Source of the DNA: Adineta ricciae
Lineage: Eukaryota
Length of the DNA stretch: 41,278 bases
Assembly (NCBI GenBank): GCA_905250025.1
Contig: CAJNOJ010000059.1
Span: forward strand, 1-41,278
Direction: 5' to 3'
Shown piece after piece: positions 23,013 to 41,278 of this stretch. The notes under the pieces were generated by a model. That model searched no databases, was not told the origin of the DNA, and saw only the letters and a program-made list of their open reading frames with translations. The position numbers were made by a program, and so were the translations under genes. Position 1 is the first letter of the stretch. Each line of letters opens with the position of its first letter.

Positions 23013-24037
23013 TCGTCTTCACATAACTACCGAACATTTCCAATCTATATTAATTATTATTTCTAATATTCTATTTTTCATCTATGTTTGTACTTAAAAT
23101 GCTATTCGTGTTATTCTTCTTGTGTCGAATAGTTCATATTCATGACTTCAATTCATATCAATAAATTTCAAACCATTTATTCTAGGCCAAACATGGCACA
23201 CCAATACTAAAAACAGTTTGATTCCTAATTCAATTTATTCTTGTTGTCAATATACTTAATTTCTCCTGGCACTTTTCATTTCAACTTTGACAGATCTGTC
23301 ATCTGTTCGTTTTTCGACCACAAGACATCAACATCTTTAGTAATACTTTTTCATGCAATGATAAGACTAGTCAACAGGTTCCTAAACTATTCCTATTTAT
23401 CATATCTCGATTCTTATCTATCTATCTCAAATAGAATAACACAAGAATTTTACAAAATGAATTTCTGCTATGCGTATATTTCGTTCTATTATTACCGACC
23501 AATAATAAACTCGAATGGATGATTTATTCTGACTGGATAAATACGTCAATTATTATATGTGTCCTAGGATATACACATATTTGTGAGAGAACGCTTTCTG
23601 CATACAGAACACGCATAGGCGAAAGAACAGAACAATATGACGTATATTTGCCATGCCGATGTAATGCTTTCAGACAACCTCCGTATATTCGATCAATCAT
23701 AAATATGTACAGAAAAAGAAGTACTAAAGGAAAGGAAATATACGCCCAACACAAACGTTTACTCAATAAAATGAGTAAGAAACCCTTTTTTTCTCACCAG
23801 TAAGTAATCCAAACGATGACCTAAACTTATGGTATTTCTACATGATAAGTTGAAAAACTAAAATAACGAACGATAGCATTGATTACTGATCAGTATTATG
23901 TGTAACAGAAAAAAACAGATTCACGCATGAATGCTCACTATGATATTGACATAAAATGTACAGAAAAATACAAATAGGTGATTGTATAGTTTTCTTTGCA
24001 GCAGCATCAAAGAAATGTTTTCGTTTAACTATTTTAG

Positions 24038-26298: not shown

Positions 26299-26520
26299 TA
26301 GCAAGAAAGGAAGTACAGGCTTCGATTTTCGACAGTGTACATCTATGATATTTTTATCTAATAAATATCTGATGTTTACAAGCTATTTTGTAAACTTTAT
26401 GACAGTATTATTTTTTTCTTCAAAGAAATATTTCTTAGATTTCATTTCGGATTTATTATTCGTTACTTGAGAGTACAAAAAATGGACGGATAGAATTGGA
26501 GAATACTTTTCAAATGAGAT

Positions 26521-26952
26521 TTAAACTTTCATTTTATCTGTTGATTGTTGTTGAAGATCATGAATCATATAATTAACTGGGTCCGCAGGTCGAGTCAAAA
26601 CAACTTTCGCTGTCAGTGTCTACAAAGCATACACAGATAAAAAATACTCTTCTATTGATCGAACATTTACTTTGAGATATTCGTACATTCCATGTCGCAT
26701 CATATATTTATCAGCGAGAACATCTGGATTCTCATTCTGATAGGTTTTGTGTAGCATAACATCGATTTCTTCATCGGTAGCTTCTTGTTGTTCGCCATTG
26801 TCATTAATTTTGAGTAAACCAAGCATTTGCAAACGTCGTTGAGCTTCAGGATGTATACGTTCGAGTTCAAATTTCAATTTAGTTGCTACAACGAAACTGT
26901 CCACATCCAACGATTGTAAAGTCGACCATTCTGCTGGATGTTCATTCATCAT
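26521..26952 (-). CDS. Hypothetical protein with a C-terminal DPY-30 / RIIa-like dimerisation-docking motif (about 127 aa)
   Basis: Two exons: approx 26671-26952 and 26521-26619, with a 51-bp intron. The C-terminus YMMRHGMYEYLKTLTAKVVLTRPADPVNYMIHDLQQ matches the DPY-30 motif pattern (Y..L...L...RP.DP..Y....L). The N-terminal about 95 aa has no recognisable family. An upstream in-frame ATG at 26976 is also possible. Confidence 0.5.
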
Positions 26953-27064
26953 GGTATAAATCTTAAACAAAAACAAAAGCTAAAATCTAACCGAATCAAT
27001 AACTATGAAACAAAAATCACAATCAATTTCTTAAAATTAGAAAAATGAAAATGAGTTTCTTCGG

Positions 27065-27733
<669 letters not shown>

Positions 27734-27847
27734 TGTTCGGTGAGATCTTGTCTACAATACAAACAGATTCAGTAAGTTAGAACATCAAGAAAAAACGAGA
27801 CTTGTTTATTGACAGCGAAACAAAAAGACAATGTCACAAAAAAATGT

Positions 27848-28420
27848 TCTAAACAGCCGATTGACGATAATTTTTTGTTTGCAAAATCTTCACTCCACAC
27901 ATGCCACATATGCCCAATTTGTAGGCACAACCTAGACGAACTCAAATCGAAAAAACGCTAAACGCATCGGAAAAAAAACAAACCTTGACAATAAGAACTT
28001 CCCGGTTGATGAATAGTACCTTTGCACACTTTACATTTGCTAAATTTAGTCGTATACGGACTATACCTAGACATAGACTGATTATAGGCAATTTACACGG
28101 TTCGAGATGAAGAACAAACCGTGTTGATTTTCCGCTTAATAATTTATTCTCATTTAGTTTTCGACCACCACTTTCTAAGAACGATTTACACAAACGTGAA
28201 CCAAGACAGTTTATTACAAATACATACCCACTGTATTACGAGAACCACCTAGAAGAGAGACGCGTGCAAAGCCTTCAACCATTTTTTAATATCAACAACA
28301 AACATACTTTTCCAAGTCTCTTGTGTTGCAACTGTGCCAACTTTCTTTTTACCTGACAAACAGACAATTTTTGATCTCCAAACGGAAAACTTCAATGAAC
28401 TTACAATTGTCGCAAACCAT
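27848..28420 (-). CDS. CRIPT: Cysteine-rich PDZ-binding protein CRIPT, 100 aa
   Basis: Six exons including 16-nt and 21-nt microexons: approx 28405-28420, 28308-28352, 28228-28248, 28120-28174, 27983-28065, 27848-27930. The spliced protein is MVCDNCKKKVGTVATQETWKSGSRNTVESGGRKLNENKLLSGKSTRYSPYTTKFSKCKVCKGTIHQPGSSYCQGCAYKLGICGMCGVKILQTKNYRQSAV, collinear with vertebrate CRIPT. Confidence 0.85.
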
Positions 28421-28475
28421 GATAATCTATGTACACAGTTATTCTATATCTACAACAAATGAACTGTATATTTAT

Positions 28476-29113
28476 CTAATCAGCTAGTGGATTGGCATGA
28501 ATAGTAGCACGTTGTATTCGAATGTCTGTTTCTGGTCGATATGTTTTTTCGTTCACCGAGACTTTTTCTAATTCATCGAGAGTTTCAAATCCATCAATAA
28601 CTTTGCCAAATACAGTGTATTTTCCGTCAAGATTCGCTTGTTTACTATAGGTTATAAAAAATTGCGAGCCATTCGTATCTGCACCTCGACTGGCCATCGA
28701 AACGATTCCTCGTTGACTATGCTAAACGAATCAATTAAGTTTAATTGATTGAAAAAAAGTGCAAGAGTACTTTCAAAAGAGGATCAATTTCATCCTAAAT
28801 AAACGAAAAATACAAGTGAATAGTTTAATGAATAATGTAGATGTATTACTGGAAAATATTCACCCCAAATACTCTGTCCACCTTTGCCAGTTCCCGTTGG
28901 ATCACCAGTTTGAATCATATAACCTTTTACATTTCGATGGAATAAACAATTATCGTAGTAATTACTTGCACACAAGGCCAAGAAATTCTAGATTTATTAT
29001 ATACTTTCTCGATGAAATATTCATCTCATCGTTGAATTCCTTACCTCACAAGCTTTCGGACATTGATCACAGTAGAGTTCGATTTTGATATCACCTAAAT
29101 CCGTGTGTAGTGT
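28476..29113 (-). CDS. PPIL3: Peptidyl-prolyl cis-trans isomerase-like 3 (PPIL3 cyclophilin), 161 aa
   Basis: Four exons: approx 29036-29113, 28850-28987, 28771-28794, 28476-28721. [68 protein letters not shown]...[48 protein letters not shown] is near-collinear with human PPIL3, which is also 161 aa. Confidence 0.9.
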
Positions 29114-29260
29114 AACAGACATCTAGAACGCAGAAGAATCAAGGAAATGAAAATAATCTCGTAGATTTTGTTTTTTTACACAATCAAAGGCAAAAAAAGT
29201 AAATAGATGTATAAAAAAGAAAAGTATTGTACAAGAATCGCAAACGTTCTTTTTCATTGT

Positions 29261-31211
29261 TTATGCTGACTCGCCTTCCGTGTTCACAACGACAGTATTG
29301 TGTTCGATCTCATCCTTTTTCTGTCGACGATATTCACAATGGAAAAAACAGATAAAACAAATGACTAGAACCACCGAAAACGCAGCCAGAATATATACAG
29401 GAACTAAACAACGAGACATGAAACATAGGAAAAGCAATTGTGCAGTGTTTTACTCGAATAATCACGAATATCATCGAGTTGTCCATCTTGAATGTCACAT
29501 TTCTGAATACTCATTTGATGAGGTGAGGGTGACATTGTAAAATGTGGTAAGATGATAATCGCAAGTATACTTCCCACTTGACTAGAAACAGATTGGATGT
29601 AAACTTACATATGTTATTTGTAATTTTCTTACCTTGCCACCATGAAAATTCCCACTACAGTAGCTTCAGGAACTGGATGCGTACTAAATAAAAGTGTCAG
29701 TAAATGTTTAGATAAAGTCTGTCGCATCGAATTACATACGTTTCAATACTCAGATCTAAACTTAGTGGAAGTATAGGCGCATTTGATAATCCAGCGATAG
29801 CAAAGATCAGATAAAGCCAATACGATTTGACTTCGTTAACAATGAACTATTGATACATATGTATGAAATAGATAGTAATCAGAATGTTTACTTACTAATC
29901 CAATACACATCAATGAAATAACTCCAATGGAATACAGAATCTTTGTTAACTCTTCTAATTTTTTTGTTTTATCGGCAATGTAGCCCATGACAATACATCC
30001 GATCAAGCCAAATATAATAAAAGAACCGATACATAATCCCACTGCAATGTTGTCATAGCCAAATGGACACATAATCTGTTGTAACAATGTCGAAAGTGTA
30101 TTGTTATTCGATAGACCAATACCAATCGTAGCGAAGAGAATTAAATACGATTTCGATGTAATAAGCTGAATAATAAACATTGTTAATCAATCGATTTATC
30201 AGAGTTAAATTTCATACTTTTTTGAAAACTAATCGATAAGGAGTTTTGACATCAAGTGCTGCTAAACACGATGGTGTTGGTGGTTGTGATGATCGAACAG
30301 TTAAGGACAAAGCAGCTGCAAGAATTGCTGGAATTAATGTGAGATAAAGCTAAATGAATGAATAAAACAATCAATAGAAAGAGATGTTTTCGTTTGCATT
30401 GCATAGCACATACTAATAGAGGTATTTTATGTTCATTAGGAACGATCAATGGTGGTGTCACAGTACCAATGAAAACACCGAGAAAGTTAGCTTGAAAGAT
30501 ACATATGTAAAGATACGTTCTGACAGTGTTTAAATCTTACTAGCAAAACAGAGACTATTTGCTAATGTTCGTTGGTGTTCTGGAAACCACGCAAAAGCAA
30601 ATTTAGTTGGTAAAAACAGTGTAAATGTTTGAGCGAATGAGCAAATCAATTGACCTACAGAAATCAATCAAATAATTAATATGATTACTAAAAATATGTC
30701 TTACCGGTGAAAACAATTGGATAACGGCCATGCACCGAAACGAATCCCCATGTGCTAATCACTCGAAACGATCCACCGATTAGATTCAACCAAACACCTG
30801 TTAAAATCTGTCGAAAGAAATTCTATCCTTGCTGAATTTGATCATCTTTCGAGAACTTACTCCAAATCGAATACCGAAGCGATCAATGGCCCAGGTCGAT
30901 GGTAATGTAAATATACCACAGACGACCATAAATATAAGTGAAAGCCAGTTGACAGCTGCATAGGAAACGTCGAAATATACTTTAGCATAATTAGCGATTG
31001 AAGCAAAATTTATCCATAACTATACGAACGCGTGTTATTATTTTCAATGAAGTAACAAAAAAAGTTTACTCACAATTGAATTTGACAAATTTGCCAGACA
31101 GATACAGAGTAGATAAAGCCATCGTCGTCTGTATACTTTGAATTCTAGTGGAGTCACCAAAGGTGTTGGTGACGATGGACGAGAATCATCATTATCGATA
31201 GAGCCGTACAT
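29261..31211 (-). CDS. MFS transporter, FLVCR / SLC49-like, paralog A
   Basis: Multi-exon gene on the minus strand; exons only partly mapped. Start MYGSIDNDDSRPSSPTPLVTPLEFKVYRRRWLYLLCICLANLSNSI (the YRRRW.L..C.L block resembles FLVCR N-termini). Internal exons encode LYLTLIPAILAAALSLTVRSSQPPTPSCLAALDVK and QQIMCPFGYDNIAVGLCIGSFIIFGLIGCIVMGYIADKTKKLEE. It ends ...HCEYRRQKKDEIEHNTVVVNTEGESA with the stop at 29261-29263. Confidence 0.7.
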
Positions 31212-31286
31212 CTAGAAATTACGCAATCACATGAAATAACATCGAATGACATGTTATGACTATCGAGTTGGTGTCATTCGCTAACT
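31212..31286. promoter_or_regulatory. About 75-bp head-to-head intergenic spacer between MFS paralog A (minus) and the NMNAT-kinase gene (plus): putative bidirectional promoter or twin trans-splice acceptor region
   Basis: The ATG of the minus-strand MFS gene is at 31209-31211 and the ATG of the plus-strand ORF is at 31287. On the minus strand aatttctag directly precedes ATG. Confidence 0.4.
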
Positions 31287-32774
31287 ATGATCGACACCGA
31301 CAAACTACTCTTGCCTCTATCCGATGCAAAAAAGAATATTGTCTTACTGTTAAATGGATGTTTCAATCCAATACACAACAATCACATTCGTCTCTTAGAA
31401 GTCGCACGCGAACATCTAAATACGTTGGATACATATCATATCGTTGGTGGATATGTTTCTCCAACTCATGATGCCGCTATTCAACGGAAAATATCGACTA
31501 TTCATGCAACATGGCAAAATCGTCTCGAAATGTGTCGACTAGCTGTTCGAGATTCATCATGGATTATGGTAGATGGATGGTTAGTCTCGCAAGAGAGAAA
31601 TATCGGTGCTCAACAATCTAAACAGCATTTAAAAGATTTCCTGTGTAAATCTTATCCTTCGATTGAAGTTGTATCGGTATGTGGTGGTGATGCTTTACCA
31701 AAATTGAAAGTAACATTTAAAAAAGAATTGGTAATATGCGTAAATAATCGACCGATTGAAGATTTCGACTTTGACGAATGGTTTCATTCACCAGCCATCG
31801 AACAATTTCATCATAATATCATTCTCATACATGATAATCAATGTAGTAAATACATAAGTAGTACGAATATTCGTCGACGAATCAGTGAAAATCGTTTTGA
31901 TTTATTGATTGATGATCTTCATCCATCAGTGCTCGATTACCATCGTGAACAAGAAATCACTTATCGTTCGGCAGATGAAACTGTTCTTTGGTCTGAACTC
32001 GGCGGAAATGACGGTGTTGTACTTGGACAAGGTCGATGTGCGACGGTTTATCAGAAAGAATATAAACATCGACATGTTGCTGTAAAAGTTATACGGGAGC
32101 GTAGACAATTTGTGAACGAATTGAAAGTTTTAACACTATTGGCTAATGAAACATCATATCATGTAAATCTCATTGAAATATATGGCATAGGTGATCAGTT
32201 TTGTGTCATGGAAAAATGTGATATAGATCTTCTTTCATACATTGAGAAGAATCGAATGGTAAAAAGCCAGACAATAACAACAATTTTCCCAAATTCACAG
32301 TGGTTAAGTTTCATCAAACAAATGTTGACTGGATTTGTTCATTTGATTTCACTTGGCATTCTTCATCGTGATATAAAGACAGATAATATTCTCCTATCCA
32401 ATATGATTGTTAAAATATCTGATTTCAGTGTGTCAGTCAATTTGAGTTCCATGACTAAAATGCCAGTGCGAGGTTCGATGCGTCATTACCCACCGGAATC
32501 TATCAATGATAAGCAAATTTACACCGAAAAATCGGATGTTTTCATGTTTGGATGCTTACTTTATGAAATTGTTCATGGTGGACAACGCGTTTGGCATGAA
32601 GTCGACACATCTGAAGTTGTCAAGCGACGATTAAACGGTGAAAAACCATTATTTTCCGTGCAATGTGAACCATGGTATTTGGACGCGGTGACACACGATT
32701 GTTGGGCATTCAATAGTGACCAACGACCAACATTTGAACAACTATTACAGAATACATTTATACGAAATAATTAA
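31287..32774 (+). CDS. Bifunctional-looking fusion protein: N-terminal NMNAT-like (nicotinamide/nicotinate mononucleotide adenylyltransferase) nucleotidyltransferase domain fused to a C-terminal protein kinase domain; intronless, 495 aa
   Basis: Single uninterrupted ORF. Residues about 10-235 carry both nucleotidyltransferase signatures of the NMNAT family: the (H/T)xxH motif in LLNGCFNPIHNNHIRLLE and the C-terminal ISSTNIRRRI motif (compare ISSTKIRRAL in NMNAT1). Intermediate blocks are collinear (VSVCGGDALPKL, ELVICVNNRPIED, NIILIHDNQ). Residues about 240-495 are a eukaryotic protein kinase: a Gly-loop-like LGQGRCATVY, VAVKVI (beta3 Lys), HRDIKTDNILL (catalytic loop), KISDFSVS (DFG to DFS), YPPE, and a TKL-like C-lobe CWAFNSDQRPTF. 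Confidence 0.8.
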   Translation: MIDTDKLLLPLSDAKKNIVLLLNGCFNPIHNNHIRLLEVAREHLNTLDTYHIVGGYVSPTHDAAIQRKISTIHATWQNRLEMCRLAVRDSSWIMVDGWLVSQERNIGAQQSKQHLKDFLCKSYPSIEVVSVCGGDALPKLKVTFKKELVICVNNRPIEDFDFDEWFHSPAIEQFHHNIILIHDNQCSKYISSTNIRRRISENRFDLLIDDLHPSVLDYHREQEITYRSADETVLWSELGGNDGVVLGQGRCATVYQKEYKHRHVAVKVIRERRQFVNELKVLTLLANETSYHVNLIEIYGIGDQFCVMEKCDIDLLSYIEKNRMVKSQTITTIFPNSQWLSFIKQMLTGFVHLISLGILHRDIKTDNILLSNMIVKISDFSVSVNLSSMTKMPVRGSMRHYPPESINDKQIYTEKSDVFMFGCLLYEIVHGGQRVWHEVDTSEVVKRRLNGEKPLFSVQCEPWYLDAVTHDCWAFNSDQRPTFEQLLQNTFIRNN

Positions 32775-33198
32775 AAGAAAGAAATCAGCAGGTTAAGCTT
32801 ATAATAAACTACCAATGACAGAATATGAAATAAGAAATGTAGAAACCAGCGACATCTGTGTGAATGATCGATTCGAAACAGGCGTTGTCAGTTGTAACTC
32901 AATACTTTGAAGATCGATACACTAATTGAGAACTTCTTCGAATAGAAGTATGTCGAGGTGAAATTTATTTCGAGAAATAGATGAATATGTATAAAATTGC
33001 AAGTCAGCTTTAGTTGACTCATTATGATTATTATTCATTGAATTACAATACAACAACGAAAAGAATTAAATCACAATATACATCGTTTGAAAGCTGAAGT
33101 GTGATGTAAAGCATACCAAGTTACCGAAAGAATGTCCTTCGATAATAAAACAACTTTTGTGCGGATAAATTGTGGATTGTCATAATTCGTATGTGCAA

Positions 33199-34322
33199 CT
33201 AAAATGAAAATAGATGCAAAAATACTTCTTTTTTTATCAGTGCAATTTTCGTACTTTGTCCAATACCCTCGTAGGAAAGAGGAGAATCGGATTCCACTTC
33301 GATAGGACGTATAGCAGCAAACGATATTTTCCCATGTGGTACATTTCGATCACCGGAAATCTTGCGTGCTACTAAAGCATCCGAAATAGTTTCTTCATTT
33401 GTCGACGTATCATCACTAACAGAAGGACAAGTGAATTCGTGAAAGAATTCGAGATGAAGGAGTTCTAGACCATGACCACCATACGATCCAACCCAGAGTC
33501 CATTCAAACGCGACAATGGATGATCATGTTCACTGGTAGTTGGCTGAACAATCGACAATGGATAATAGTAGATAGTCTCATGTTCATAACAACATTTTAT
33601 AAAATGAATATCACGTTCTCTGGGATGAGCATCGTCGCGATGATCATTTAAAATTAATGATGATCGTTCACTGATTGGCAGAGCTTCTTGTGATAAACCA
33701 AAGTATGGTTCGTTATTATCGAAAGTTTTGACCCATTTTAGTTCTGGGTGTGGCAAATTACAATCGTAGCAAAAGATTTGATTCGTTTGCGTATCAATAT
33801 TGAATATTTTTGTTTGTATGTAAATGGGTTCAAAAGATGATTCATCGTCATCCATGTCGAATTGGTCATGTTCGGATTGTGCAGGATAAGGTGCGATTTT
33901 TTCTCCAATGATGTTCCCATCGGACAGATTTAGATGAACATTGATAAGACCACCGAAAAACATCTCATCCGATTTCCAATAGCCGAGATATCGACCGTAG
34001 GGCACAAGAATCTTTGTGAATATTCTATAAAAAAAATGTTGGAGCATACTTCTTCGTTTTTTCGAACATTTCAATCTTCTTACTCATAAAAACTTTGTTT
34101 TATCGTATTCACTGGCGGTTTAACATTGTACAATTGATAACATAGTCGTTTCCATAAGCGGTCATCGCGTGAAACAGTGGAGAACAGAGAACAAACACGA
34201 GAAAATGAACACAGATCTCTCGGTGAATCTATACGGCTAGCTACTTCAAAGAGAACTTCATATGGAAGTTGATCCATCTGAAAATAAACATAAACTAAAA
34301 AGATTTCATTTAAAAGATTCAT
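33199..34322 (-). CDS. FBXO31: F-box only protein 31 (FBXO31)-like F-box protein
   Basis: Two exons: approx 34084-34322 and 33199-34024, with a 59-bp intron of phase 2. F-box: LPYEVLFEVASRIDSPRDLCSFSRVCSLFSTVSRDDRLWKRLC. The C-terminal domain is collinear with FBXO31: YWKSDEMFFGGLINVHLN compared with WQPDIGPYGGLLNVVVD, and GLWVGSYGGHGLELLHLEF compared with GLFKGTYGSHGLEIVMLSF. The start could instead be the second ATG at 34275-34277 (MDQLPYEV), which sits directly behind a ttattttcag acceptor. Confidence 0.8.
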
Positions 34323-36143
34323 CTAATGTTCGCAACGACGTCTGTATTTGCATTTGAAAGATCGAAAGTAAAAAATTGTGACAACAATCATGATAAATGC
34401 CATCGCGTAAAGTGATGCTGAAACAACAAGGATCTAGAACTTCAAACAGAAGATCTTAGATGTTTACTTGAATAATTTAGTATTGCCAGTCCATGTTTGA
34501 CATCTTTCGAACAAGTCTCAATCGACATTTCATGCTCATTCAACGGACGAGCGAACTTTGGGAAAACCGTCACCATCAGGATTCCAATGACTTGACTACA
34601 TAGTAAAAATTCATAAAAGTCGATTCGATTTGCTCGTCTCTACCTTGACATAACACTAACACCGATTGCTGTTGCCTCAGGTATTGGATAAACGCATTCA
34701 AGCGTCAAATCCATCGAGATAGGCGACAAAGACAACGATACAAGTCCAACCAAAGCAAATGCGAAATAGATCAAATACCTTTCCATTCGACAAACAATGA
34801 ACTAAACGAAAGGTTCAGACTAGCAAACTTTATTTGATGATTCGGATCTATACTATGGCAAGAAGAACATACGCAATTGAACTTGCAATATATAAACCTT
34901 TCGAAATTTCGTTTAATTTTCCCGTTCGATCAGCAACATAACCAAATAATAACGAACCCAAACTACCCATTCCAATAAACCATCCTAGACAGAATCCAAT
35001 TGTCCTATTATCGTAGCCATACGTACACATGATCTGTTCAATTAATGTTGACAATGCGTTAAAGCATCCAATAGCAAATCCACAAGCAAGAAATAAAACA
35101 ACGAATGATTTCGATTGGAAAAGCTAAAGAAAATTCTCAGAAAAGATCAAATTTTCAAATGTCCGAACACGATTTCATACTCGTTTCAATGCACAAGTAA
35201 ACGATTGTTGCACACGAACGACTGCTTTACACGATGGTGTCGGCGGTTCAGCTGATCGCATGGCCAAACAAAGTAAAGCAGCACAGGAAGCAGGCATAAC
35301 ATTGACATACAACTTAATGTGAGAAAGATTACGATAAAATGTCAACTCTTCAACTCACTAATAACGGAATTCTGTCGATAGTCGATGCAATCAGGGGCGA
35401 AAGAATACTGCCAAGTAAGATACCAAAGAATCCGCCTAAAAATGTGCAAAAGTAATCAATGACTATTGAGAAGAATGAACCTACTCCCAATAGCAATTGA
35501 ATTAGCGAATGAGCGTTGTTTTTCCGAAAACCATAAAAAGCAAAATTTCGTGGGAATAAACAGAATAAAAGTTTGTGCTAGAGCACAAAAAGTTTGTCCT
35601 AAAACACAAGAATGTTCTGTTAAAAAAATACGTTTTCATTTCAAACTTTACCTATCATCAACACACCAAATTTTCGATTTCGATCAAATATTGACAACAC
35701 ACTCAAACACCGAATCAAACTTCCAATGGCATTCGTCCAGGTTCCAATCAGTAACTATAAACTGCACACGATCTACTTTTACACAACATTCTATCAATCA
35801 AACCCCGGAACGAACACCGAGCCTATCGATTAACCATGTCGATGGCAATGTAAACGGTACTGTTATAAGCATGTAAATTAAACTCAGCCAATTGATCGCA
35901 TTGTAACCGACTTGATAGTATTCCGAAGCTAAATTAGCAATCGGTGAGAAATTTATCCAGATCTATATGGAAATATCTAATTAACCGTACGAAATCAATT
36001 TGATTTACCATTGCATTGGAAATTTGAGCTAAACAAACGATAAATAAATAAAACCACCGGCGTTTATATGTGATATATACATCGAGAGTAATCTCCTGTG
36101 TCTCCTCGTCTTCATTCTGACGGAGTCGTTGATAATCAGTCAT
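34323..36143 (-). CDS. MFS transporter, FLVCR / SLC49-like, paralog B
   Basis: Multi-exon gene on the minus strand. Start MTDYQRLRQNEDEETQEITLDVYITYKRRWFYLFIVCLAQISNAM, homologous to the paralog A N-terminus. An internal exon reads STLIEQIMCTYGYDNRTIGFCLGWFIGMGSLGSLLFGYVADRTGKLNE. Terminal exons encode ...ECVYPIPEATAIGVSVMSR, ...CSKDVKHGLAILNYS and ...FKCKYRRRCEH. The stop TAG is at 34323-34325, immediately abutting the FBXO31 ATG. About 45% identical to paralog A. Confidence 0.7.
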
Positions 36144-36312
36144 CTAAAACAGTTTTGTTTTGATGTAAATCAATTGATCTTTCACAAAAATATGTTAGTT
36201 AAAACGGAGTTCTTGATATTCTCGTTCTTAAAAGTTTCAATCGCATCTTTGTACAAGAAACACTTTTCTCTGGGAAAATATTTGAAAATGTAAAGCAGCT
36301 GTCCACTCATGA

Positions 36313-36973
36313 TCAATAATGTTCTTCAATCGGATTTCCATCATCGACAAGTCCATGTTCAACCATTGCCTTTTGTCGAAGTTTTTCAATTCGCTCTTTC
36401 TTTTCTAAATCTTCTTTTTGTAATTTCAGAATTTCTTCAATTGAAACTTCAAACAGCGGAACGCGTAATGGTTTACGATAATCTAATTCACCTATGAGTA
36501 ACACATTCTCTCCTCGAATTACGAACAAACCACGGGGAATATCTGCGTATTGCTGACCAACACAAATGCGTTCGAATGCTTGATGAAGAACAAGATTCCC
36601 TTTGAAAAGAAAAAACAACAAGCATATTATGAATCATTCGATTTCTCAATGTAAATATTTAACAAATTTTCAATTATTTCAATTAAATACATGTTTAATC
36701 CATCGGTTAGAATTTCATTCGGTAAAAAGATCGTATCGAATGACATCGATCTAGATTGTGTCTCTTGATACCTACCAAACTGATCGAGACTTCGTAGGAA
36801 AGCAATTAAGGTTCGACCATCACGTAGAATAACCATTAATTGTTCTAAATATACATCGACTTCGGTTTTAGATCGGACTATTCTTTGATATTTTTCTTCT
36901 TACTGTCAATATCATCGACTAGCGTTGCGATACCGGATAAATAAAAGTCATTATTGACTATACTTATATCCAT
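36313..36973 (-). CDS. LSM1: U6 snRNA-associated Sm-like protein LSm1
   Basis: Three exons: approx 36904-36973, 36776-36844, 36313-36599. ...[62 protein letters not shown]...VSIEEILKLQKEDLEKKE is near-collinear with human LSM1 ([61 protein letters not shown]). Confidence 0.88.
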
Positions 36974-37311
36974 GATGTAGAAGAAAAGATCAAAATCTGA
37001 AAGAGAAGATTTTTAATGAACATTGTACTTTTTCTTTCGTGTGTACATTTCAAAGATTTCTTTTTCTCTTCTCGATACATCATTATTCAATCACGTCTAT
37101 AACCCTCTCCTATAGTGTCAATTAGGTTAAACATAAAACGAAAAAAACGACGAAGAAAGAGACAGACGTTCTGTGTCTTCTTCGTTAGTGCGTCGAGTCT
37201 TTTTTTTTGTGTGTTATACGTAGGCGAAAGATGTACATATAAAAAAAAAGACGACGCAAAAAAAAGTGTTAATAATATAAATTTCAATCGACAATTTGCA
37301 CTCATTCGATC
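36974..37311. promoter_or_regulatory. About 340-bp divergent intergenic region between LSM1 (minus) and the downstream plus-strand gene: putative bidirectional promoter with poly(A)/poly(T) tracts and a repeated gacgacg motif
   Basis: Seen directly: aaaaaaacgacgaagaaagagacagacg, gtctttttttttgtgtg, aaaaaaaaagacgacgcaaaaaaaagtg. The 104-aa ORF at 37115-37429 here is a low-complexity K/R-rich artefact. Confidence 0.35.
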
Positions 37312-38358
37312 ATGGGCAATTCAAGAAGTAACTACGAACGACATGAAGATGACGAACAACAACAACGAATGGTTATCGGCAAAGAATTTCGTCTTCTTCT
37401 CGGCCAACTTCGCTTATCATCGGATTTAATTAAACGACATAAGATTTTGTTTCGCAACAAACAACAGTACCATCGAGATCCGTCGTTCTCGTCATCAAAT
37501 TCAACCATAGCATCGTCGGCATCGTTTGATCAACCGAATTCAGCTGTATCATTCATTCAACTCGATATTCCGACATCGCCGCTCGATGCAAAAGAATTCG
37601 ATACTCATGCATTCATGCAGTATCTTCTTCAACAAGAATCCTATGGTAAAGAACTTTCGCATGTCTTTCGAATTCCAATTAATATAACAAAAACTCATAA
37701 GATTCGCACGAAAACATTGCCAACAATGAAAATTGCCGCTGTTTATTATGAACAGTCATGTTCAACACATGACTTGAATATTGAAATGCTCTCATTAGAT
37801 TATGAAACTGAACTGGAGCGAAAAATCGAACAGTTCAATGACAAAAATATCCTATCTATTTATATTTCAAGTAAGTTTTTAATAAACGAATTCTTTCACA
37901 ATCTATTCTTCTGTCAATTCCATTCAGAATCATCAGCCTATGTAATTTATACGAAAAGTTCATCCCTACACAGTAAATATAAACTCATACGCTCGACAAC
38001 AATGTCTAAAACAGCACTTGACAATTTTGAATGGCTTCATCCTTTTATCGACTACTCAAACTTAGGGTATCGCTTGTGCGGAATAATTCCCTTCGCGAAT
38101 TGTCCAATGGAAAACTCTCTAACTATCTATTGGATATTCGAACAAGTGGATACCAATGAAACGATTCAGTATGACTATTCTCTTATCGAATGTCAATTGA
38201 AAGTATCTTCGACTCCTAATTGGTATTCGTTACTGAATCTAATGGTCAAACAAGAATGGAAATTGGTGGCAACGTTGGATTATAATCAAAAGAAAAAGAC
38301 TAATGAACAAACCTATTTCTTATTGTTCTTTCAAAGATTGAAACATTTGCGAGGTTAG
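37312..38358 (+). CDS. Hypothetical protein with an N-terminal MGNSRS N-myristoylation-type motif; family not recognised
   Basis: ORF of 348 aa starting MGNSRSNYERHEDDEQQQ (Gly2 and Ser6 fit the myristoylation consensus). A probable 57-nt in-frame intron lies at approx 37871-37927 (gtaagt...cattcag). Removing it replaces the odd hydrophobic SKFLINEFFHNLFFCQFHSE with a single K. No known domain recognised. Confidence 0.5.
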   Translation: MGNSRSNYERHEDDEQQQRMVIGKEFRLLLGQLRLSSDLIKRHKILFRNKQQYHRDPSFSSSNSTIASSASFDQPNSAVSFIQLDIPTSPLDAKEFDTHAFMQYLLQQESYGKELSHVFRIPINITKTHKIRTKTLPTMKIAAVYYEQSCSTHDLNIEMLSLDYETELERKIEQFNDKNILSIYISSKFLINEFFHNLFFCQFHSESSAYVIYTKSSSLHSKYKLIRSTTMSKTALDNFEWLHPFIDYSNLGYRLCGIIPFANCPMENSLTIYWIFEQVDTNETIQYDYSLIECQLKVSSTPNWYSLLNLMVKQEWKLVATLDYNQKKKTNEQTYFLLFFQRLKHLRG

Positions 38359-38499
38359 AAAAAAAAAGACTTCGTTTATTATTATTATTATTATTACTTT
38401 TTCTGGAATGGTATTCGTATCAATAAAAGAAAAGAAAACAGAAAGTCAACTCGATTTTGAAAGATGAATAGACTACGGTAGTTATGTTCTGTGTTACTC

Positions 38500-40781
38500 T
38501 TAATATCGACTAATATCTCGACCGAATATATGCGTACGAACCCAATCAAACGCGAGTAATGTTTTCGTGCGTCCAGTAAACATTTCCGTGAAATAGAATG
38601 ATTTCCACAGGTAAACAGCACTACGACCTGATAATGGTTTCAAATCGAAATAATCAAGGAGCGGTTTCGAGCCAGTAAAATCGACTACAGCTTCATCACC
38701 GCCAACGTATGCTAATGAACCCATATGTTTATATTGAAATGGTGTTAAATTCTGTTGTTGAAAGTCGGTAGAATGAACATTAGAGGCTTGATTGAGAAGT
38801 TTTGCAACGTAACGACCTTCCTGAGATGCAACTTGAGCAGTTGCGGGTAATGCACGAATTTTCTGGTCAGCTTTTTCGAGAATGGAACGAAGAGTAGAAA
38901 GAGTTAAATAACCTGATTTGTTCTTATCAACTTCTGCAAAAGCATCTTCGATCTTTTTCGAAAATACTTCTAACTAGAAAGCAAACTTTCAACACTCATA
39001 AACGAGTTCTTCCTGAGAATCCTTTACCTGTGGATATTCGGCAACTTTTTTCTCCACTAAAGTTCGAAATTGTTGAATATCAAGCGCTCCTCGGTTTTGT
39101 GTATCCGCTTCTTCAAAGAGTGCTTCAATTCGATCAGCTAATTTAGCTGGCTGAATCGTAGCACAATCACCAATAGCAAATATTGATCCATCGTCGACAC
39201 CTTTTACACGTAAATATCGATCAGTGAGAAGACCCATACGATTGCTTTGAATGTTTAAACCGATGATTTCTCGGATTCTGTTTGTCAATGGTCGTGCTTT
39301 GATACCAGTTGCCCAAACTACCATAGAACATGGTATAGATTTTAGTTCGGTTGAGCCTTTGTATTGAACAACAACTTCCCGTTGTTTGACTTCTTTGACG
39401 AATGTATTCATCAACACCTCGATGTTTTCACGACGAAAATGACGTTCGGTATAATCGCTAATTTTCTTATCCTGACAAAAAAAGCAGAAGTAGATTAATA
39501 GTAATGATACGATCACAACGTATGTACGAACCATCATGGATAAGACATGATCAAGTGCTTCGATTAATGTTATTTTAACATCATTTGCGACCAAACGTGG
39601 AAAATAATGTTGAAGATCTTCGCGAACAAGATCAGCAAGCTATCATTCAATAGAACGAAGAAATAGATTATTCAAAAGAAAACATTCCAATAGACATACT
39701 TCCGCTGCAAATTCAACGCCTGTTGGTCCACCTCCAACAACAACAAAATGTAGAAGACGTTTTTTCTCCTCGACTGTTTGTGTTGGCGTCATTGCTGATT
39801 CAAATGCATCGCTAATCGCAGAACGAATACGTCGAGCATCAAGAAGTTCTTTCAGAAAATGTGCGTGCTCTTCAACTCCAGGCGTGTTAAATGTGTTATT
39901 TTCTGAACCAATCGCAACGACAAGTATATCGTATTTCATATCAAATTGTGGCCGTGTTCGAGCTGAACAAATAACATCGATCGATCTTTGTCTTTACAAA
40001 TTCAAGACCATTGTCATACCTGAATCCTTGATAATTCTTGATGAAGCACCACCTTCCCGTTTCGAAATTGGTAATATTGCTTTAACATCATCGCCACGAG
40101 ATACGTTCGAATCGCCATCTGTATTGCATGTGATTACTTTTGCTTTTGGATCGATATTAACACAATGTGCTTCGATATATTTGACTCGGGGACCAATAAG
40201 TGAACGAACCGATTCAATCACTGTTCGAGTTTCGACTGTACCAACACTTACCGAAGGTAGTAATGGCGTCATTAGAAAATAATTTCGTGGAGACACGCAA
40301 ATAACTTCGTATTTACTCGTATCGATATGTTTTAACAACGGTACAGCGCCCCAACCTAACAAAAGAAGATATTCACTCAAAATCAGATTAACAAATTCAA
40401 TCGTAACCTGTTCCAAGAACAACAATACGTTGTTTAGTTCCAAGCGTCTTATCCGAATCGCTCATTTCATGGAACCATTTATATCGTTGATACGCACGGT
40501 AAGCATAAAACGTACCGAAACCAACAACAGTCACAATAAATACATTTTTTAAACGTCGTTTTAATCGTCCGCCTGAAAATGCACAAAGGTTTTATGTGAA
40601 ACAACGCGTTTCTAGTGACACTGTTCAACATACCGAACGTTTCCTTCCCTGGTTGGTTGGAAAACCATGCCAGATTTCGTTTGATTATCGGCTTGATATC
40701 ATGAAGTTGTTTTATAGATAAATTTCGTCGTGAATTAACTGTCGATAATTGTTGTACAAATAAAGCCGAACGTGAGAACAT
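38500..40781 (-). CDS. Type II (alternative, rotenone-insensitive) NADH dehydrogenase NDH-2 with EF-hand insertion and mitochondrial presequence, about 645 aa
   Basis: Seven exons: approx 40634-40781, 40408-40572, 40020-40355, 39700-39962, 39532-39639, 39028-39471, 38500-38973. Presequence MFSRSALFVQQLSTVNSRRNL. First dinucleotide fold RIVVLGTGWGAV (spliced). Second NAD(P)H fold HFVVVGGGPTGVEFAAE. FLMTPLLPSVSVGTVETRTVIESVR. VVWATGIKARPL. GSIFAIGDCATIQ. An EF-hand-like DKNKSGYLTLSTL is inserted in the C-terminal part as in plant NDB and fungal NDE enzymes. C-terminus FDWVRTHIFGRDISRY. Confidence 0.85.
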
Positions 40782-41278
40782 GTTGTTTCCCTGAAAAAAT
40801 CAAAGTCTCTCACCTTAATCTATCAGATTCATTATTTTATATTTATATAACATAAAGGGAAGATAAAAAACACACACAATAATTAACCATTCTATTTGTC
40901 ATGCTATACATCAATCAAATGAAAATTCGACTGACATCTTTCGAGAAGCTGTTTTTCCTTATGAATGGTCAATTATATCGATTCGTTTGCTTTAGTCGAT
41001 GAACTTCGAACATTCGGAATGGCAAAATATAGTCAAGTCGGTTAGAGTACGGCACAGATAAATCGAAACTCGTTCGAAACTACCTGCTGGCACTTGTTAC
41101 TCAATGATGATTTGATTCTATTTGAACAATTCATGAAATAATACCAAAAATCATCTGCCTTTCTTGGACTGAGAGTAACAGCAAAAAATATCGATTTATT
41201 TTTAATTTGTATTTATTCAGTTCAGTAACACCGTACATGTATTTGCTATGATTGAAGTTCAATGGTTATATTAGAAAA

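What the first reader, a model, noticed from the sequence alone, without database searches (positions are those of the whole stretch)
38500..40781. Alternative (type II) NADH dehydrogenase with EF-hand in an animal-like intron-rich genome
NDH-2 enzymes are standard in fungi, plants, protists and bacteria but are absent from most metazoan lineages. Here a complete seven-exon gene encodes one with a mitochondrial presequence, both GxGxxG folds and a calcium-binding-type EF-hand insert of the external NDE/NDB type. Its introns match the host style, 50-60 bp GT-AG, so it is a resident nuclear gene rather than contamination. It implies a rotenone-insensitive, possibly Ca-regulated bypass of complex I.
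Basis: partly seen in the sequence, partly recalled or inferred. Interest (0 to 1): 0.6.

Follow-up and report, generated by a model that had tools for sequence, protein, structure and literature searches.

The report
Alga-derived alternative NADH dehydrogenase in rotifer
The window holds an intact, intron-bearing gene of the bdelloid rotifer Adineta ricciae for a mitochondrial alternative (type II) NADH dehydrogenase; its closest relatives are algal rather than animal, so it was most likely captured from an alga long ago, and its calcium-sensing motif has decayed.

Summary
A seven-exon gene lies on the minus strand at 38500-40781, with six GT-AG introns of 52-61 bp. It encodes a 645-aa type II NAD(P)H:quinone oxidoreductase (NDH-2), not an AIF/FSP1 protein (yeast Ndi1 E=8e-81; FSP1 E=3e-8). 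All catalytic motifs and the C-terminal membrane domain are intact.

The window is Adineta ricciae, a bdelloid rotifer, and the protein is already in public databases.

1. It is not the animal type. Bdelloid copies group at 100% bootstrap with red-algal, cryptophyte and prasinophyte sequences, apart from a sponge+cnidarian clade. They share an insertion found in 25/25 algal-side and 0/24 other sequences, and share no introns with a cnidarian gene. Ancient alga-to-bdelloid transfer, followed by intron gain, is the best explanation.

2. Both EF-hand loops lack the position-12 glutamate, so calcium control is unlikely for this copy.

3. As an external-type enzyme it would oxidise cytosolic NADH, which is not strictly a complex I bypass.

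dN/dS is about 0.09, and synteny with a duplicated segment shows an old, functional resident gene. This is a new member of known kinds, of moderate interest.

The parts
38500..40781 (-). Complete NDH-2 gene: CDS from ATG (40781) to TAA (38502-38500), 7 exons, 645 aa
   Evidence: Manual splice model gives a clean ORF. The product is 100% identical to the A. ricciae protein P0001. The exact exon finder reproduces the same structure on public contig L001.
40573..40633 (-). Intron 1 (61 bp, GT-AG, after aa 49, phase 1); separates the presequence exon from the rest
   Evidence: Same position in the A. ricciae ohnolog P0012.
40356..40407 (-). Intron 2 (52 bp, after aa 104, phase 1); splits the FAD-binding motif
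   Evidence: Shared with P0012 and with paralog P0023.
39963..40019 (-). Intron 3 (57 bp, after aa 216, phase 1); lies inside the algal-type insertion
   Evidence: Shared with P0012. Absent from P0023, which also lacks the insertion.
39640..39699 (-). Intron 4 (60 bp, after aa 304, phase 0)
   Evidence: Shared with P0012 and P0023.
39472..39531 (-). Intron 5 (60 bp, after aa 340, phase 0)
   Evidence: Shared with P0012 and P0023. The nearest cnidarian intron is 3 codons away, so it is not the same site.
38974..39027 (-). Intron 6 (54 bp, after aa 488, phase 0); lies between the two EF-hand units
   Evidence: Shared with P0012 and P0023.
40635..40781 (-). Presequence-like N-terminus (aa 1-49): 7 basic, 1 acidic and 7 Ser/Thr residues in the first 45; conserved R-x-[LIF]-S (R19-N-L-S22), which looks like an R-3 processing site
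   Evidence: Composition and N-terminal comparison across bdelloids. AF2 pLDDT is below 50, i.e. disordered. Targeting itself is inferred; no predictor was available.
40490..40567 (-). Basic cluster plus hydrophobic segment (aa 52-77, RLKRRLKN-VFIVTVVGFGTFYAY-RAY); candidate inner-membrane stop-transfer anchor
   Evidence: One of the top Kyte-Doolittle windows (about 1.0). An equivalent segment is present in red-algal, cnidarian and plant homologs. It is modelled as part of a long helix 49-91.
40345..40414 (-). FAD-binding dinucleotide motif G103-T-G-W-G-A108 (interrupted by intron 2)
   Evidence: Alignment. G103, G105 and W106 are invariant in 44 sequences.
39946..40122 (-). Algal-type insertion (aa 183-222, conserved core GASSRIIKDSARTRPQF 207-223); the marker of the subfamily
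   Evidence: Present in 25/25 algal-side and 13/15 bdelloid sequences, and in 0/24 sponge, cnidarian, plant, fungal and amoebozoan sequences. The variable part 185-213 has low pLDDT.
39718..39735 (-). NAD(P)H-binding motif G293-G-G-P-T-G298
39559..39561 (-). Glu331 in 'LIEAL' at the end of the second strand of the NAD(P)H fold; the acidic residue predicts NADH preference
   Evidence: Alignment. It aligns with the Glu of Ndi1 'LVEAL'. Paralog P0023 has Gln here. The specificity rule comes from the plant NDB literature (Michalecka et al. 2004, as cited in PMC4587368).
38863..39141 (-). EF-hand pair insert (aa 451-525), interrupted by intron 6
   Evidence: Pfam EF-hand_1/6/7. Calmodulin and troponin C match 452-527. 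Four helices form two helix-loop-helix units, pLDDT about 80-89.
39070..39105 (-). EF loop 1, DTQNRGALDIQQ: non-canonical (Q at position 3, R at position 5, Q at position 12)
38893..38928 (-). EF loop 2, DKNKSGYLTLST: canonical except Thr at position 12, where the bidentate Glu/Asp ligand should be
   Evidence: Glu is retained in Didymodactylos, two Rotaria copies and all red algae.
38821..38838 (-). Quinone-site motif AQVASQ (AQxAxQ), aa 534-539
   Evidence: V536, A537 and Q539 are invariant.
38515..38727 (-). NDH2_C C-terminal membrane-association domain (aa 571-641)
   Evidence: Pfam PF22366, 64 bits, profile positions 1-62 of 62. It aligns to the Ndi1 C-terminus.

Best explanation
This is a functional nuclear gene of the bdelloid rotifer Adineta ricciae. 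It encodes a single-subunit, non-proton-pumping mitochondrial type II NAD(P)H:quinone oxidoreductase of the EF-hand-bearing 'external' (plant NDB / fungal NDE) architecture.

Shown: the gene model, family membership, intact FAD, NAD(P)H and quinone motifs, the NDH-2 fold, purifying selection, and membership of an algal-type subfamily distinct from the sponge/cnidarian animal type.

Inferred origin: one eukaryote-to-eukaryote horizontal transfer from an alga (red-algal-like lineage; the exact donor is unresolved) into the bdelloid stem. This happened before the Adineta/Rotaria/Didymodactylos split and before the genome duplication that produced the ohnolog. The gene then gained six host-style introns, shifted to host base composition and duplicated into at least three lineages per genome.

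Inferred mechanism: a cleavable presequence plus a hydrophobic stop-transfer segment place the enzyme on the outer face of the inner membrane. There FAD accepts a hydride from cytosolic or intermembrane-space NADH (Glu331 predicts NADH over NADPH) and passes electrons to ubiquinone. This step is rotenone-insensitive and pumps no protons. Because both EF loops have lost the position-12 acidic ligand, this copy is probably constitutive, i.e. Ca2+-independent like Arabidopsis NDB4.
For: Gene model: reproduced on the public contig.

Family: Pfam Pyr_redox_2 + NDH2_C + EF-hand; Ndi1 8e-81, PfNDH2 1.6e-75 and bacterial NDH-2 1e-24 to 1e-30, against AIFM2/FSP1 3e-8 or weaker; AF2 model pLDDT 83 / pTM 0.80, with best PDB matches PfNDH2 (TM 0.91) and Ndi1 (0.85-0.88); motifs.

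Organism and residency: 100% identical to an A. ricciae protein. GPCR, Ig-domain, LSM, ACE-like and MVP genes are its neighbours. There is a colinear ohnologous segment carrying NDH2, LSM, Cript, HIT, M2-peptidase and PID. GC3 is 0.26, like host genes.

Selection: dN 0.13 and dS 1.5 against the ohnolog.

Algal ancestry: identity is 57-62% to red algae and cryptophytes but 38-46% to cnidarians. Alien index is 174 and the bit-score gap is 698 against 437. In NJ bootstraps, bdelloids are monophyletic at 100%, bdelloids plus the algal side split from the rest at 100% (also 100% on 402 core columns without inserts, under two distance models), and bdelloids plus the animal type group at 0%. The sponge+cnidarian clade has 84-97% support. 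The window protein scores 911 bits against the algal profile HMM and 614 bits against the animal one. The shared insertion is found in 25/25 algal-side, 13/15 bdelloid and 0/24 other sequences. The Porphyridium gene is intronless, and 0 of 6 rotifer introns coincide with the 6 Dendronephthya introns.

EF decay: with the AtNDB4 precedent in PMC4587368.
Against: The trees are neighbour-joining only; no ML or Bayesian program was available. The exact sister group is weakly supported (bdelloids + Porphyridium/Erythrolobus 31-55%).

One holozoan, the choanoflagellate Salpingoeca macrocollata, carries an algal-type copy. That leaves room for an old holozoan paralog, although it never groups with the bdelloids (0-1%).

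Absence from monogonont rotifers and other bilaterians rests on their not appearing in capped top-120 lists. It is not based on direct genome searches.

Ciona NDX could not be retrieved for the tree.

Localisation, orientation, substrate preference and Ca2+ independence are sequence inferences. No expression or enzymatic data were examined.
Confidence: 0.8

Rival explanations
1. Vertical inheritance of an ancient eukaryotic or holozoan NDH-2 paralog. On this view the 'algal-type' subfamily existed in the ancestor of animals, was lost in nearly all animals, and survived in bdelloids and in at least one choanoflagellate.
For: The choanoflagellate Salpingoeca macrocollata has an algal-type sequence carrying the insertion. 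The branching order inside the algal-side clade is poorly resolved. The gene is old in bdelloids, fully adapted to host composition and in a core syntenic region.
Against: Bdelloids never group with the choanoflagellate (0-1% of bootstraps), which instead pairs with an unnamed sequence at 91%. No fungus, amoebozoan, sponge, cnidarian or other named animal carries the insertion (0/24). No other named animal appears among the top hits of the window protein. The scenario needs many independent losses. No intron positions are shared with the cnidarian gene. About 10% of expressed A. ricciae genes are foreign, some from algae (PMC3499245), so transfer is the simpler process in this lineage.
Confidence: 0.12
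2. One reading: an animal NDX-like NDH-2 whose EF-hand makes it a Ca2+-regulated bypass of complex I.
For: The EF-hand pair is significant by Pfam, sits at the NDB/NDE position and is modelled as two helix-loop-helix units. Loop 2 keeps five of six ligand positions. Some bdelloid copies (Didymodactylos, two Rotaria) keep a canonical loop. Plant NDB1 and NDB2 are Ca2+-activated (PMC4587368).
Against: Position 12 is Thr (loop 2) or Gln (loop 1), and PS00018 gives no match in this protein or in 13 of 15 bdelloid copies. AtNDB4, which has a degenerate EF domain, is Ca2+-independent. The protein is not in the animal-type clade. External-type architecture implies oxidation of cytosolic rather than matrix NADH.
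Confidence: 0.07
3. Contaminant algal DNA or an assembly chimera rather than a rotifer gene.
For: The best non-rotifer hits are algae, which rotifers eat.
Against: The gene has six 52-61 bp GT-AG introns where the algal gene has none. GC3 is 0.26 against 0.67 in Porphyridium. It sits on one contig with GPCR, Ig, LSM and ACE-like genes. The protein is recorded on two contigs, one of 461,578 bp and one of 45,133 bp, and the window is 100% identical to the latter over the 12.8 kb they share. There is a colinear ohnolog in the same genome. Orthologs exist in at least eight bdelloid species.
Confidence: 0.005
4. An AIF/AMID/FSP1-type flavoprotein rather than a respiratory NDH-2.
For: It belongs to the same Pyr_redox_2 superfamily, and weak matches to AIFM2/FSP1 exist.
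Against: Those matches are more than 70 orders of magnitude weaker than the match to Ndi1. A full-length NDH2_C domain and the AQxAxQ motif are present. The top 28 structural matches are NDH-2s or NDH-2-like (YjlD/YutJ) proteins.
Confidence: 0.005

Closest known systems
Red-algal, cryptophyte and prasinophyte NDB-like NDH-2 (e.g. Porphyridium purpureum 'External alternative NAD(P)H-ubiquinone oxidoreductase B1', Erythrolobus, Rhodosorus, Guillardia, Tetraselmis)
   Same: Closest non-rotifer relatives (54-63% identity). Same domain order, the same subfamily-specific insertion (SSSRxIxDSxRxRPxF), an N-terminal hydrophobic segment and an EF-hand pair at the same site.
   Different: The algal gene examined has no introns and is GC-rich; the rotifer gene has six introns and host composition. 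Red algae keep a canonical EF loop 2, which the window protein has lost. The N-terminal presequence exon has no alignable algal counterpart.
Plant NDB1-4 and fungal NDE external NAD(P)H dehydrogenases (AtNDB4 in particular)
   Same: Same architecture: an NDH-2 core with an EF-hand domain inserted before the AQxAxQ motif. Like AtNDB2-4 it has the acidic NADH-type residue, and like AtNDB4 it has a degenerate EF domain, which predicts Ca2+-independent NADH oxidation.
   Different: Only 41-46% identity. It falls on the other side of a 100%-supported split, and plant and fungal proteins lack the insertion. In plants the first EF loop is the canonical one, whereas in the red-algal/bdelloid lineage it is the second.
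Animal-type NDH-2 of sponges and cnidarians (Oscarella, Dendronephthya, Rhopilema, Hydra, Clytia, Hydractinia), and Ciona NDX as reported in the literature
   Same: An NDH-2 encoded in an animal nuclear genome, with introns, an N-terminal targeting region and (in the sponge and cnidarian proteins) an EF-hand pair.
   Different: A separate clade (84-97% support), 38-46% identity, no insertion, usually two canonical EF loops, and 0 of 6 introns shared. Ciona NDX was not among the best 120 hits of any of three searches, so it is more distant than plant NDB and could not be compared directly.
Yeast Ndi1 and Plasmodium PfNDH2 (solved NDH-2 structures)
   Same: Same fold and catalytic motifs (TM-score 0.85-0.91 on the target).
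   Different: Neither has the EF-hand insert or the algal-type insertion. Ndi1 faces the matrix (internal).
Foreign (horizontally acquired) genes of bdelloid rotifers (Boschetti et al. 2012, PMC3499245)
   Same: It meets the usual criteria: far better non-metazoan than metazoan matches, a phylogeny nested among non-animals, linkage to metazoan genes, and an enzyme function.
   Different: The donor is a eukaryote, which is the minority class (about 6% from algae or plants). The acquisition is ancient: pan-bdelloid, intron-rich and duplicated. This enzyme is not mentioned in that paper or in its supplements held as text.

Membership tests
NDH-2 (type II NAD(P)H:quinone oxidoreductase) | Two Rossmann-type dinucleotide-binding motifs (FAD and NAD(P)H) | tested here: met
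   G103TGWGA108 and G293GGPTG298. The glycines are invariant across 44 homologs.
NDH-2 (type II NAD(P)H:quinone oxidoreductase) | C-terminal membrane-association domain and the AQxAxQ quinone-site motif | tested here: met
   Pfam NDH2_C, 64 bits, full profile coverage. AQVASQ at 534-539.
NDH-2 (type II NAD(P)H:quinone oxidoreductase) | Overall fold matches solved NDH-2 structures better than other two-dinucleotide-binding-domain flavoproteins | tested here: met
   AF2 pLDDT 83. PfNDH2 TM 0.91 and Ndi1 TM 0.85-0.88 rank first; SQR and CoADR rank far lower.
NDH-2 (type II NAD(P)H:quinone oxidoreductase) | Rotenone-insensitive, non-electrogenic NAD(P)H:quinone oxidoreductase activity | not testable with these tools
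   Requires enzymology.
External EF-hand NDH-2 (plant NDB / fungal NDE type) | EF-hand domain inserted between the GD motif and the AQxAxQ motif | tested here: met
   Pfam EF-hand_1/6/7 at 494-523. The insert at 451-525 aligns with the NDB/NDE inserts.
External EF-hand NDH-2 (plant NDB / fungal NDE type) | At least one canonical Ca2+-binding loop (PS00018; Asp/Glu at position 12) | tested here: not met
   Loop 1 is DTQNRGALDIQQ and loop 2 is DKNKSGYLTLST; there are 0 PS00018 matches. The protein therefore has the architecture of this family, but Ca2+ regulation is not expected (as in AtNDB4).
External EF-hand NDH-2 (plant NDB / fungal NDE type) | Catalytic domain on the outer face of the inner mitochondrial membrane | not testable with these tools
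   Only indirect support: a presequence-like N-terminus followed by a basic and hydrophobic segment, as in homologs.
Animal-type NDH-2 (sponge/cnidarian clade; 'NDX') | Groups phylogenetically with other animal NDH-2 sequences | tested here: not met
   0% bootstrap for bdelloid + animal type; 100% for bdelloid + algal side. The HMM score is 614 bits against 911 for the algal profile. Ciona NDX itself could not be retrieved.
Animal-type NDH-2 (sponge/cnidarian clade; 'NDX') | Shared gene structure and indel characters with animal homologs | tested here: not met
   0 of 6 intron positions are shared with Dendronephthya. The window protein carries the insertion that all 11 animal-type sequences lack.
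Horizontally acquired bdelloid gene (criteria of Gladyshev 2008 and Boschetti 2012) | Much better match to non-metazoans than to non-rotifer metazoans (AI > 45; bit-score difference >= 30) | tested here: met
   AI = 174. Best non-metazoan full-length hit 698 bits (Erythrolobus) against best metazoan hit 437 bits (Dendronephthya).
Horizontally acquired bdelloid gene (criteria of Gladyshev 2008 and Boschetti 2012) | Phylogeny nests the gene among non-metazoan sequences | tested here: met
   (NJ only), plus the shared insertion.
Horizontally acquired bdelloid gene (criteria of Gladyshev 2008 and Boschetti 2012) | Physical linkage to bona fide metazoan genes (not contamination) | tested here: met
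   GPCR, Ig-domain, LSM, ACE-like and MVP genes lie on the same contig or window. An ohnologous colinear segment exists.
Horizontally acquired bdelloid gene (criteria of Gladyshev 2008 and Boschetti 2012) | Absent from the closest non-bdelloid relatives (monogononts, acanthocephalans) | tested here: inconclusive
   None appear in the top-120 lists, but those genomes could not be searched directly.
AIF / AMID / FSP1 | Closest sequence and structural relatives are AIF-family proteins | tested here: not met
   AIFM2 3e-8 and FSP1 1e-6 against Ndi1 8e-81. None appear among the top 50 structural matches.

The most novel reading that the evidence does not exclude
Bdelloid rotifers rebuilt a plant- or alga-like branched respiratory chain partly from foreign parts. 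On this reading, an algal external NDH-2 was captured in the bdelloid stem and then diversified into an NADH-type lineage (Glu331, this gene and its ohnolog) and a putative NADPH-type paralog (Gln at the same site, P0023/P0021). Most copies lost Ca2+ control. Together with the alternative oxidase reported in Adineta vaga, the family would give a proton-pump-free route that keeps cytosolic NAD(P)H oxidised and limits ROS during desiccation and rehydration. That would make it a horizontally acquired contributor to anhydrobiosis, and the only EF-hand-type NDH-2 found here in a named bilaterian.
Probability: 0.25. Interest if true: 0.6.

Novelty: new member of a known kind. Interest (0 to 1): 0.37.

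Why it matters
NDH-2 and alternative oxidase are being studied as single-polypeptide bypass therapies for respiratory-chain defects and as stress-tolerance factors in invertebrates. Knowing which animals have them, and where the genes came from, shapes that comparative picture.

This case shows that finding an NDH-2 in an animal genome, even with perfect host-style introns, does not establish animal ancestry. The bdelloid enzyme is an alga-derived, long-domesticated gene family, distinct from the sponge/cnidarian type.

It adds a core bioenergetic enzyme of eukaryotic (algal) origin to the catalogue of bdelloid foreign genes, and a clean example of post-transfer intron gain, from zero to six. 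It also offers a natural series of EF-hand decay, from canonical in Didymodactylos and some Rotaria to degenerate in most Adineta and Rotaria copies, for testing how Ca2+ control of external NADH oxidation is lost.

It is not a new kind of system.

Tried and rejected
1. NCBIfam scan: only sub-threshold matches to generic flavoprotein families; uninformative for a eukaryotic enzyme.

2. Rfam scan of the whole window: nothing found.

3. Literature. No held paper mentions both 'rotifer' and 'type II NADH dehydrogenase'. Two broader rotifer/bdelloid + NDH2 searches listed nothing relevant among their top hits. The 2012 A. ricciae HGT paper and its 8 text supplements do not mention NDH-2 or AOX. 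The two key reviews on animal NDH-2 (Matus-Ortega 2011; McDonald & Gospodaryov 2019) are not held.

4. Retrieving Ciona or other bilaterian NDX with a sponge+cnidarian profile: only cnidarians, a sponge and unnamed sequences ranked above plants.

5. AOX co-occurrence. It could not be tested in A. ricciae because the top-120 cap would be filled by non-rotifer sequences and I had no rotifer AOX query. The only evidence is the literature report for A. vaga (PMC7730656).

6. First support read-out after midpoint rooting mislabelled the branch supports; they were recomputed from bipartitions.

7. A first regex for the insertion was too strict; it was replaced by column occupancy.

8. No ML tree program was installed, so I used NJ with two distance corrections, a core-columns-only data set, profile-HMM scoring and the indel and intron characters as independent lines.

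9. Unnamed Logan contigs near the rotifer clade (P0031, P0033) were inspected in case they came from animals. Both genes are intronless on short contigs of unknown origin.
Full report
OBSERVATION. Reading the minus strand of 38400-40900 and splicing seven exons at GT-AG boundaries gives an uninterrupted 1938-nt CDS of 645 codons plus TAA. The exons are 40781-40634, 40572-40408, 40355-40020, 39962-39700, 39639-39532, 39471-39028 and 38973-38500. The introns are 61, 52, 57, 60, 60 and 54 bp. An independent exact-match exon finder recovers the same structure on the public contig.

WHAT THE PROTEIN IS. Pfam gives Pyr_redox_2 (98-449, 1e-47), NDH2_C (571-641, full profile, 1e-17) and EF-hand_1/6/7 (494-523, above cut-off). 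Against PDB sequences the best matches are yeast Ndi1 (8e-81), Plasmodium NDH2 (1.6e-75) and bacterial NDH-2s. AIFM2/FSP1 reach only 3e-8 to 1e-5. An AlphaFold2 model built on 44 homologs (pLDDT 83, pTM 0.80) matches PfNDH2 (target TM 0.91) and Ndi1 (0.85-0.88) first, and no AIF-family protein appears in the top 50. The FAD motif G103TGWGA108, the NAD(P)H motif G293GGPTG298, the quinone-site motif A534QVASQ539 and Glu331 (aligned with the Glu of Ndi1 'LVEAL') are all present.

WHOSE GENE IT IS. The protein is 100% identical to an 'unnamed protein product / EF-hand domain-containing protein' of Adineta ricciae, a bdelloid rotifer. Orthologs at 77-83% identity occur in A. steineri, A. vaga and four Rotaria species, together with a more divergent paralog lineage (65-69% identity) and homologs in Didymodactylos. 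The window is 100% identical to the overlapping part of contig CAJNOR010000351.1. Neighbouring genes are typical animal genes: a 7TM GPCR, an Ig-domain protein, LSM, an ACE-like M2 peptidase, MFS transporters, cyclophilin and major vault protein. A second A. ricciae contig carries the 80%-identical copy P0012 in a colinear block of NDH2, LSM, Cript, HIT, M2 peptidase and PID at about 68-89% nucleotide identity. That is the pattern expected for the ohnologous halves of the degenerate-tetraploid bdelloid genome. dN/dS between the two copies is about 0.09 (dN 0.13; dS 1.5, near saturation). Contamination and pseudogene status are excluded.

WHERE IT CAME FROM. After the rotifers, the best hits are red algae (Erythrolobus 59%, Porphyridium 55%, Rhodosorus 54%), cryptophytes (Guillardia 63% over part of the protein, Baffinella) and the green alga Tetraselmis. 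The best non-rotifer animal, the octocoral Dendronephthya, is at 41%, no better than land plants. The alien index is 174 and the bit-score gap is 698 against 437.

Searching with the coral protein and with a sponge+cnidarian profile returned cnidarians and the sponge Oscarella, then plants. No rotifer and no named bilaterian appeared.

I built a neighbour-joining tree of 64 sequences on 530 trimmed columns with 100 bootstraps. It gives bdelloid monophyly at 100% and a 100% split of {bdelloids + red algae + cryptophytes + Tetraselmis + unnamed relatives} from {cnidarians + sponge + plants + fungi + Amoebozoa + Acrasis}. The sponge+cnidarian 'animal-type' clade has 97% support. I repeated the analysis on 402 core catalytic columns only, removing the N-terminus and both inserts and excluding partial sequences, under Kimura and gamma distances. 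The split again has 100% support, and bdelloids + animal type 0%.

Three tree-independent lines agree:
- Profile HMMs built without rotifers score the window protein at 911 bits (algal side), 614 bits (sponge+cnidarian) and 687 bits (plant/fungal/amoebozoan).
- An insertion with a conserved core (window G207ASSRIIKDSARTRPQF223; for example Porphyridium KSSSRAIADSTRTRPSF) is present in 25/25 algal-side sequences and 13/15 bdelloid sequences. It is absent from all 24 others; the two bdelloid exceptions are the divergent paralog.
- The Porphyridium gene is intronless. All six rotifer introns are shared with the A. ricciae ohnolog, and at least four, probably five, with the divergent paralog. None coincides with the six introns of the Dendronephthya gene.

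The rotifer CDS has host composition (GC3 0.26, against 0.27-0.37 for neighbouring genes and 0.67 for Porphyridium).

The simplest reading is a single ancient transfer from an alga into the bdelloid stem. It predates the Adineta/Rotaria/Didymodactylos divergence and the genome duplication, and was followed by intron gain, compositional amelioration and duplication. This fits the known biology of A. ricciae, in which about 10% of transcripts are foreign and about 6% of those come from algae or plants (PMC3499245).

CAVEATS ON ORIGIN. The exact donor is unresolved: bdelloids + Porphyridium/Erythrolobus has 31-55% support. One unnamed member of the algal-side clade turned out to be the choanoflagellate Salpingoeca macrocollata. 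This keeps alive a rival in which the subfamily is an old holozoan paralog. However, that sequence pairs with another unnamed sequence at 91% and groups with bdelloids in 0-1% of replicates. The vertical scenario also needs losses in all other sampled animals, fungi and amoebozoans. I give it about 0.12. Only NJ trees could be built, monogonont and acanthocephalan genomes could not be searched directly, and Ciona NDX never surfaced.

HOW IT PROBABLY WORKS. The first 45 residues have 7 basic, 1 acidic and 7 hydroxylated residues. They include an R-x-[LIF]-S motif conserved across bdelloid orthologs (R19-N-L-S22), which looks like an R-3 processing site. Next comes a basic cluster and a hydrophobic stretch (RLKRRLKN-VFIVTVVGFGTFYAY, aa 52-74) that has counterparts in red-algal, cnidarian and plant homologs. 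Combined with the EF-hand-bearing NDB/NDE architecture, this suggests import by a bipartite signal and anchoring on the outer face of the inner membrane. This is inference; no targeting predictor or experiment was available. There the enzyme would pass electrons from cytosolic or intermembrane-space NADH through FAD to ubiquinone without pumping protons. Glu331 predicts NADH rather than NADPH use, following the rule derived for plant NDB proteins (cited in PMC4587368). The divergent paralog P0023 has Gln at this site, as do the NADPH-type plant enzymes. Strictly, an external enzyme substitutes for NADH shuttles and relieves cytosolic reductant pressure; it does not bypass complex I for matrix NADH.

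CALCIUM. The insert at 451-525 is a genuine EF-hand pair by homology and in the model. Loop 1 is DTQNRGALDIQQ and loop 2 is DKNKSGYLTLST, so the position-12 bidentate Glu/Asp is Gln and Thr respectively. Neither loop matches PROSITE PS00018. Across the family, cnidarian, fungal and amoebozoan proteins usually have two canonical loops and all red algae have one (loop 2). Didymodactylos and two Rotaria copies keep Glu at position 12 of loop 2, and two of these four sequences still match PS00018. The other 13 of 15 bdelloid copies have no matching loop. The precedent is Arabidopsis NDB4, which has a degenerate EF domain and is Ca2+-independent, unlike NDB1 and NDB2 (PMC4587368). I therefore rate Ca2+ regulation of this particular copy as unlikely, roughly 0.15-0.2.

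AOX. AOX genes are reported in the A. vaga genome (PMC7730656). I could not test A. ricciae directly.

NOVELTY AND VERDICT. The protein is already in public databases, and UniRef names several Rotaria orthologs 'NADH:ubiquinone reductase (non-electrogenic)'. NDH-2 in some animals is known, and so is massive HGT into bdelloids. I did not find any description of the algal ancestry of the bdelloid NDH-2 family, its separation from the sponge/cnidarian type, its intron gain or its EF-hand decay. No held paper mentions both 'rotifer' and 'type II NADH dehydrogenase'; two broader rotifer/bdelloid + NDH2 searches listed nothing relevant among their top hits. It is a new member of known kinds: a well-supported, tidy case of moderate interest rather than a surprise.

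Noticed in passing
window 7831-8895 (+) and 11121-12092 (-): Two long ORFs in convergent orientation both encode major-vault-protein pieces (Vault_4, Vault_3 and MVP_shoulder; E down to 1e-52) and are clearly paralogous. This looks like a local inverted duplication of an MVP gene.
   Followed up: partly
window 22160-23012 (+): The GC spike (0.45) with strong negative GC skew (-0.35) at 22-23 kb is a Pro/Gln/Ala-rich coding tail. It has repeated 'QQNLLF(S/A)QPAP' units and lies at the 3' end of a gene whose counterpart on the ohnologous contig is annotated with a PID/PTB domain. It is low-complexity coding sequence, not a foreign island.
   Followed up: partly
window 31287-32774 (+): A single-exon 495-aa ORF fuses an N-terminal cytidylyltransferase-like (nucleotidyltransferase) domain to a C-terminal protein kinase domain. 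This is an unusual domain combination.
   Followed up: no
window 37312-38358 (+): A 348-aa intronless ORF lies tail-to-tail with the NDH-2 gene across a 141-bp gap. It has no Pfam match. It is annotated as a gene on the public contig, but no counterpart was detected in the colinear ohnologous segment L005.
   Followed up: partly
L004 6001-8251 (A. ricciae paralog P0023) and P0021 (A. vaga): The divergent bdelloid paralog has Gln instead of Glu at the NAD(P)H-specificity site ('LIQST'). It lacks the algal-type insertion and intron 3 within one continuous exon, and its annotated first exon is only 7 nt before a 336-bp intron, so the 5' end is probably mis-annotated. It may be an NADPH-using isoform.
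   Followed up: partly
P0059 / P0062 (Didymodactylos carnosus): The two Didymodactylos models have a disrupted FAD motif region and missing segments, which suggests faulty gene models. This explains their long branch. They nevertheless keep Glu at position 12 of EF loop 2, and one of the two still matches PS00018.
   Followed up: no
P0036 (EukProt EP00052, Salpingoeca macrocollata): A choanoflagellate transcriptome contains an algal-type NDH-2 with the same insertion, in a lineage that is a close relative of animals. This is either an independent algal transfer or a hint of an older holozoan paralog.
   Followed up: partly
L005 (A. ricciae CAJNOR010001244.1) vs window 21587-40561: The second NDH-2 copy lies in a colinear block (NDH2, LSM, Cript, HIT, M2 peptidase, PID) at about 68-89% nucleotide identity, with several genes present in only one of the two segments. 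This is a textbook bdelloid ohnolog pair with differential gene loss.
   Followed up: partly
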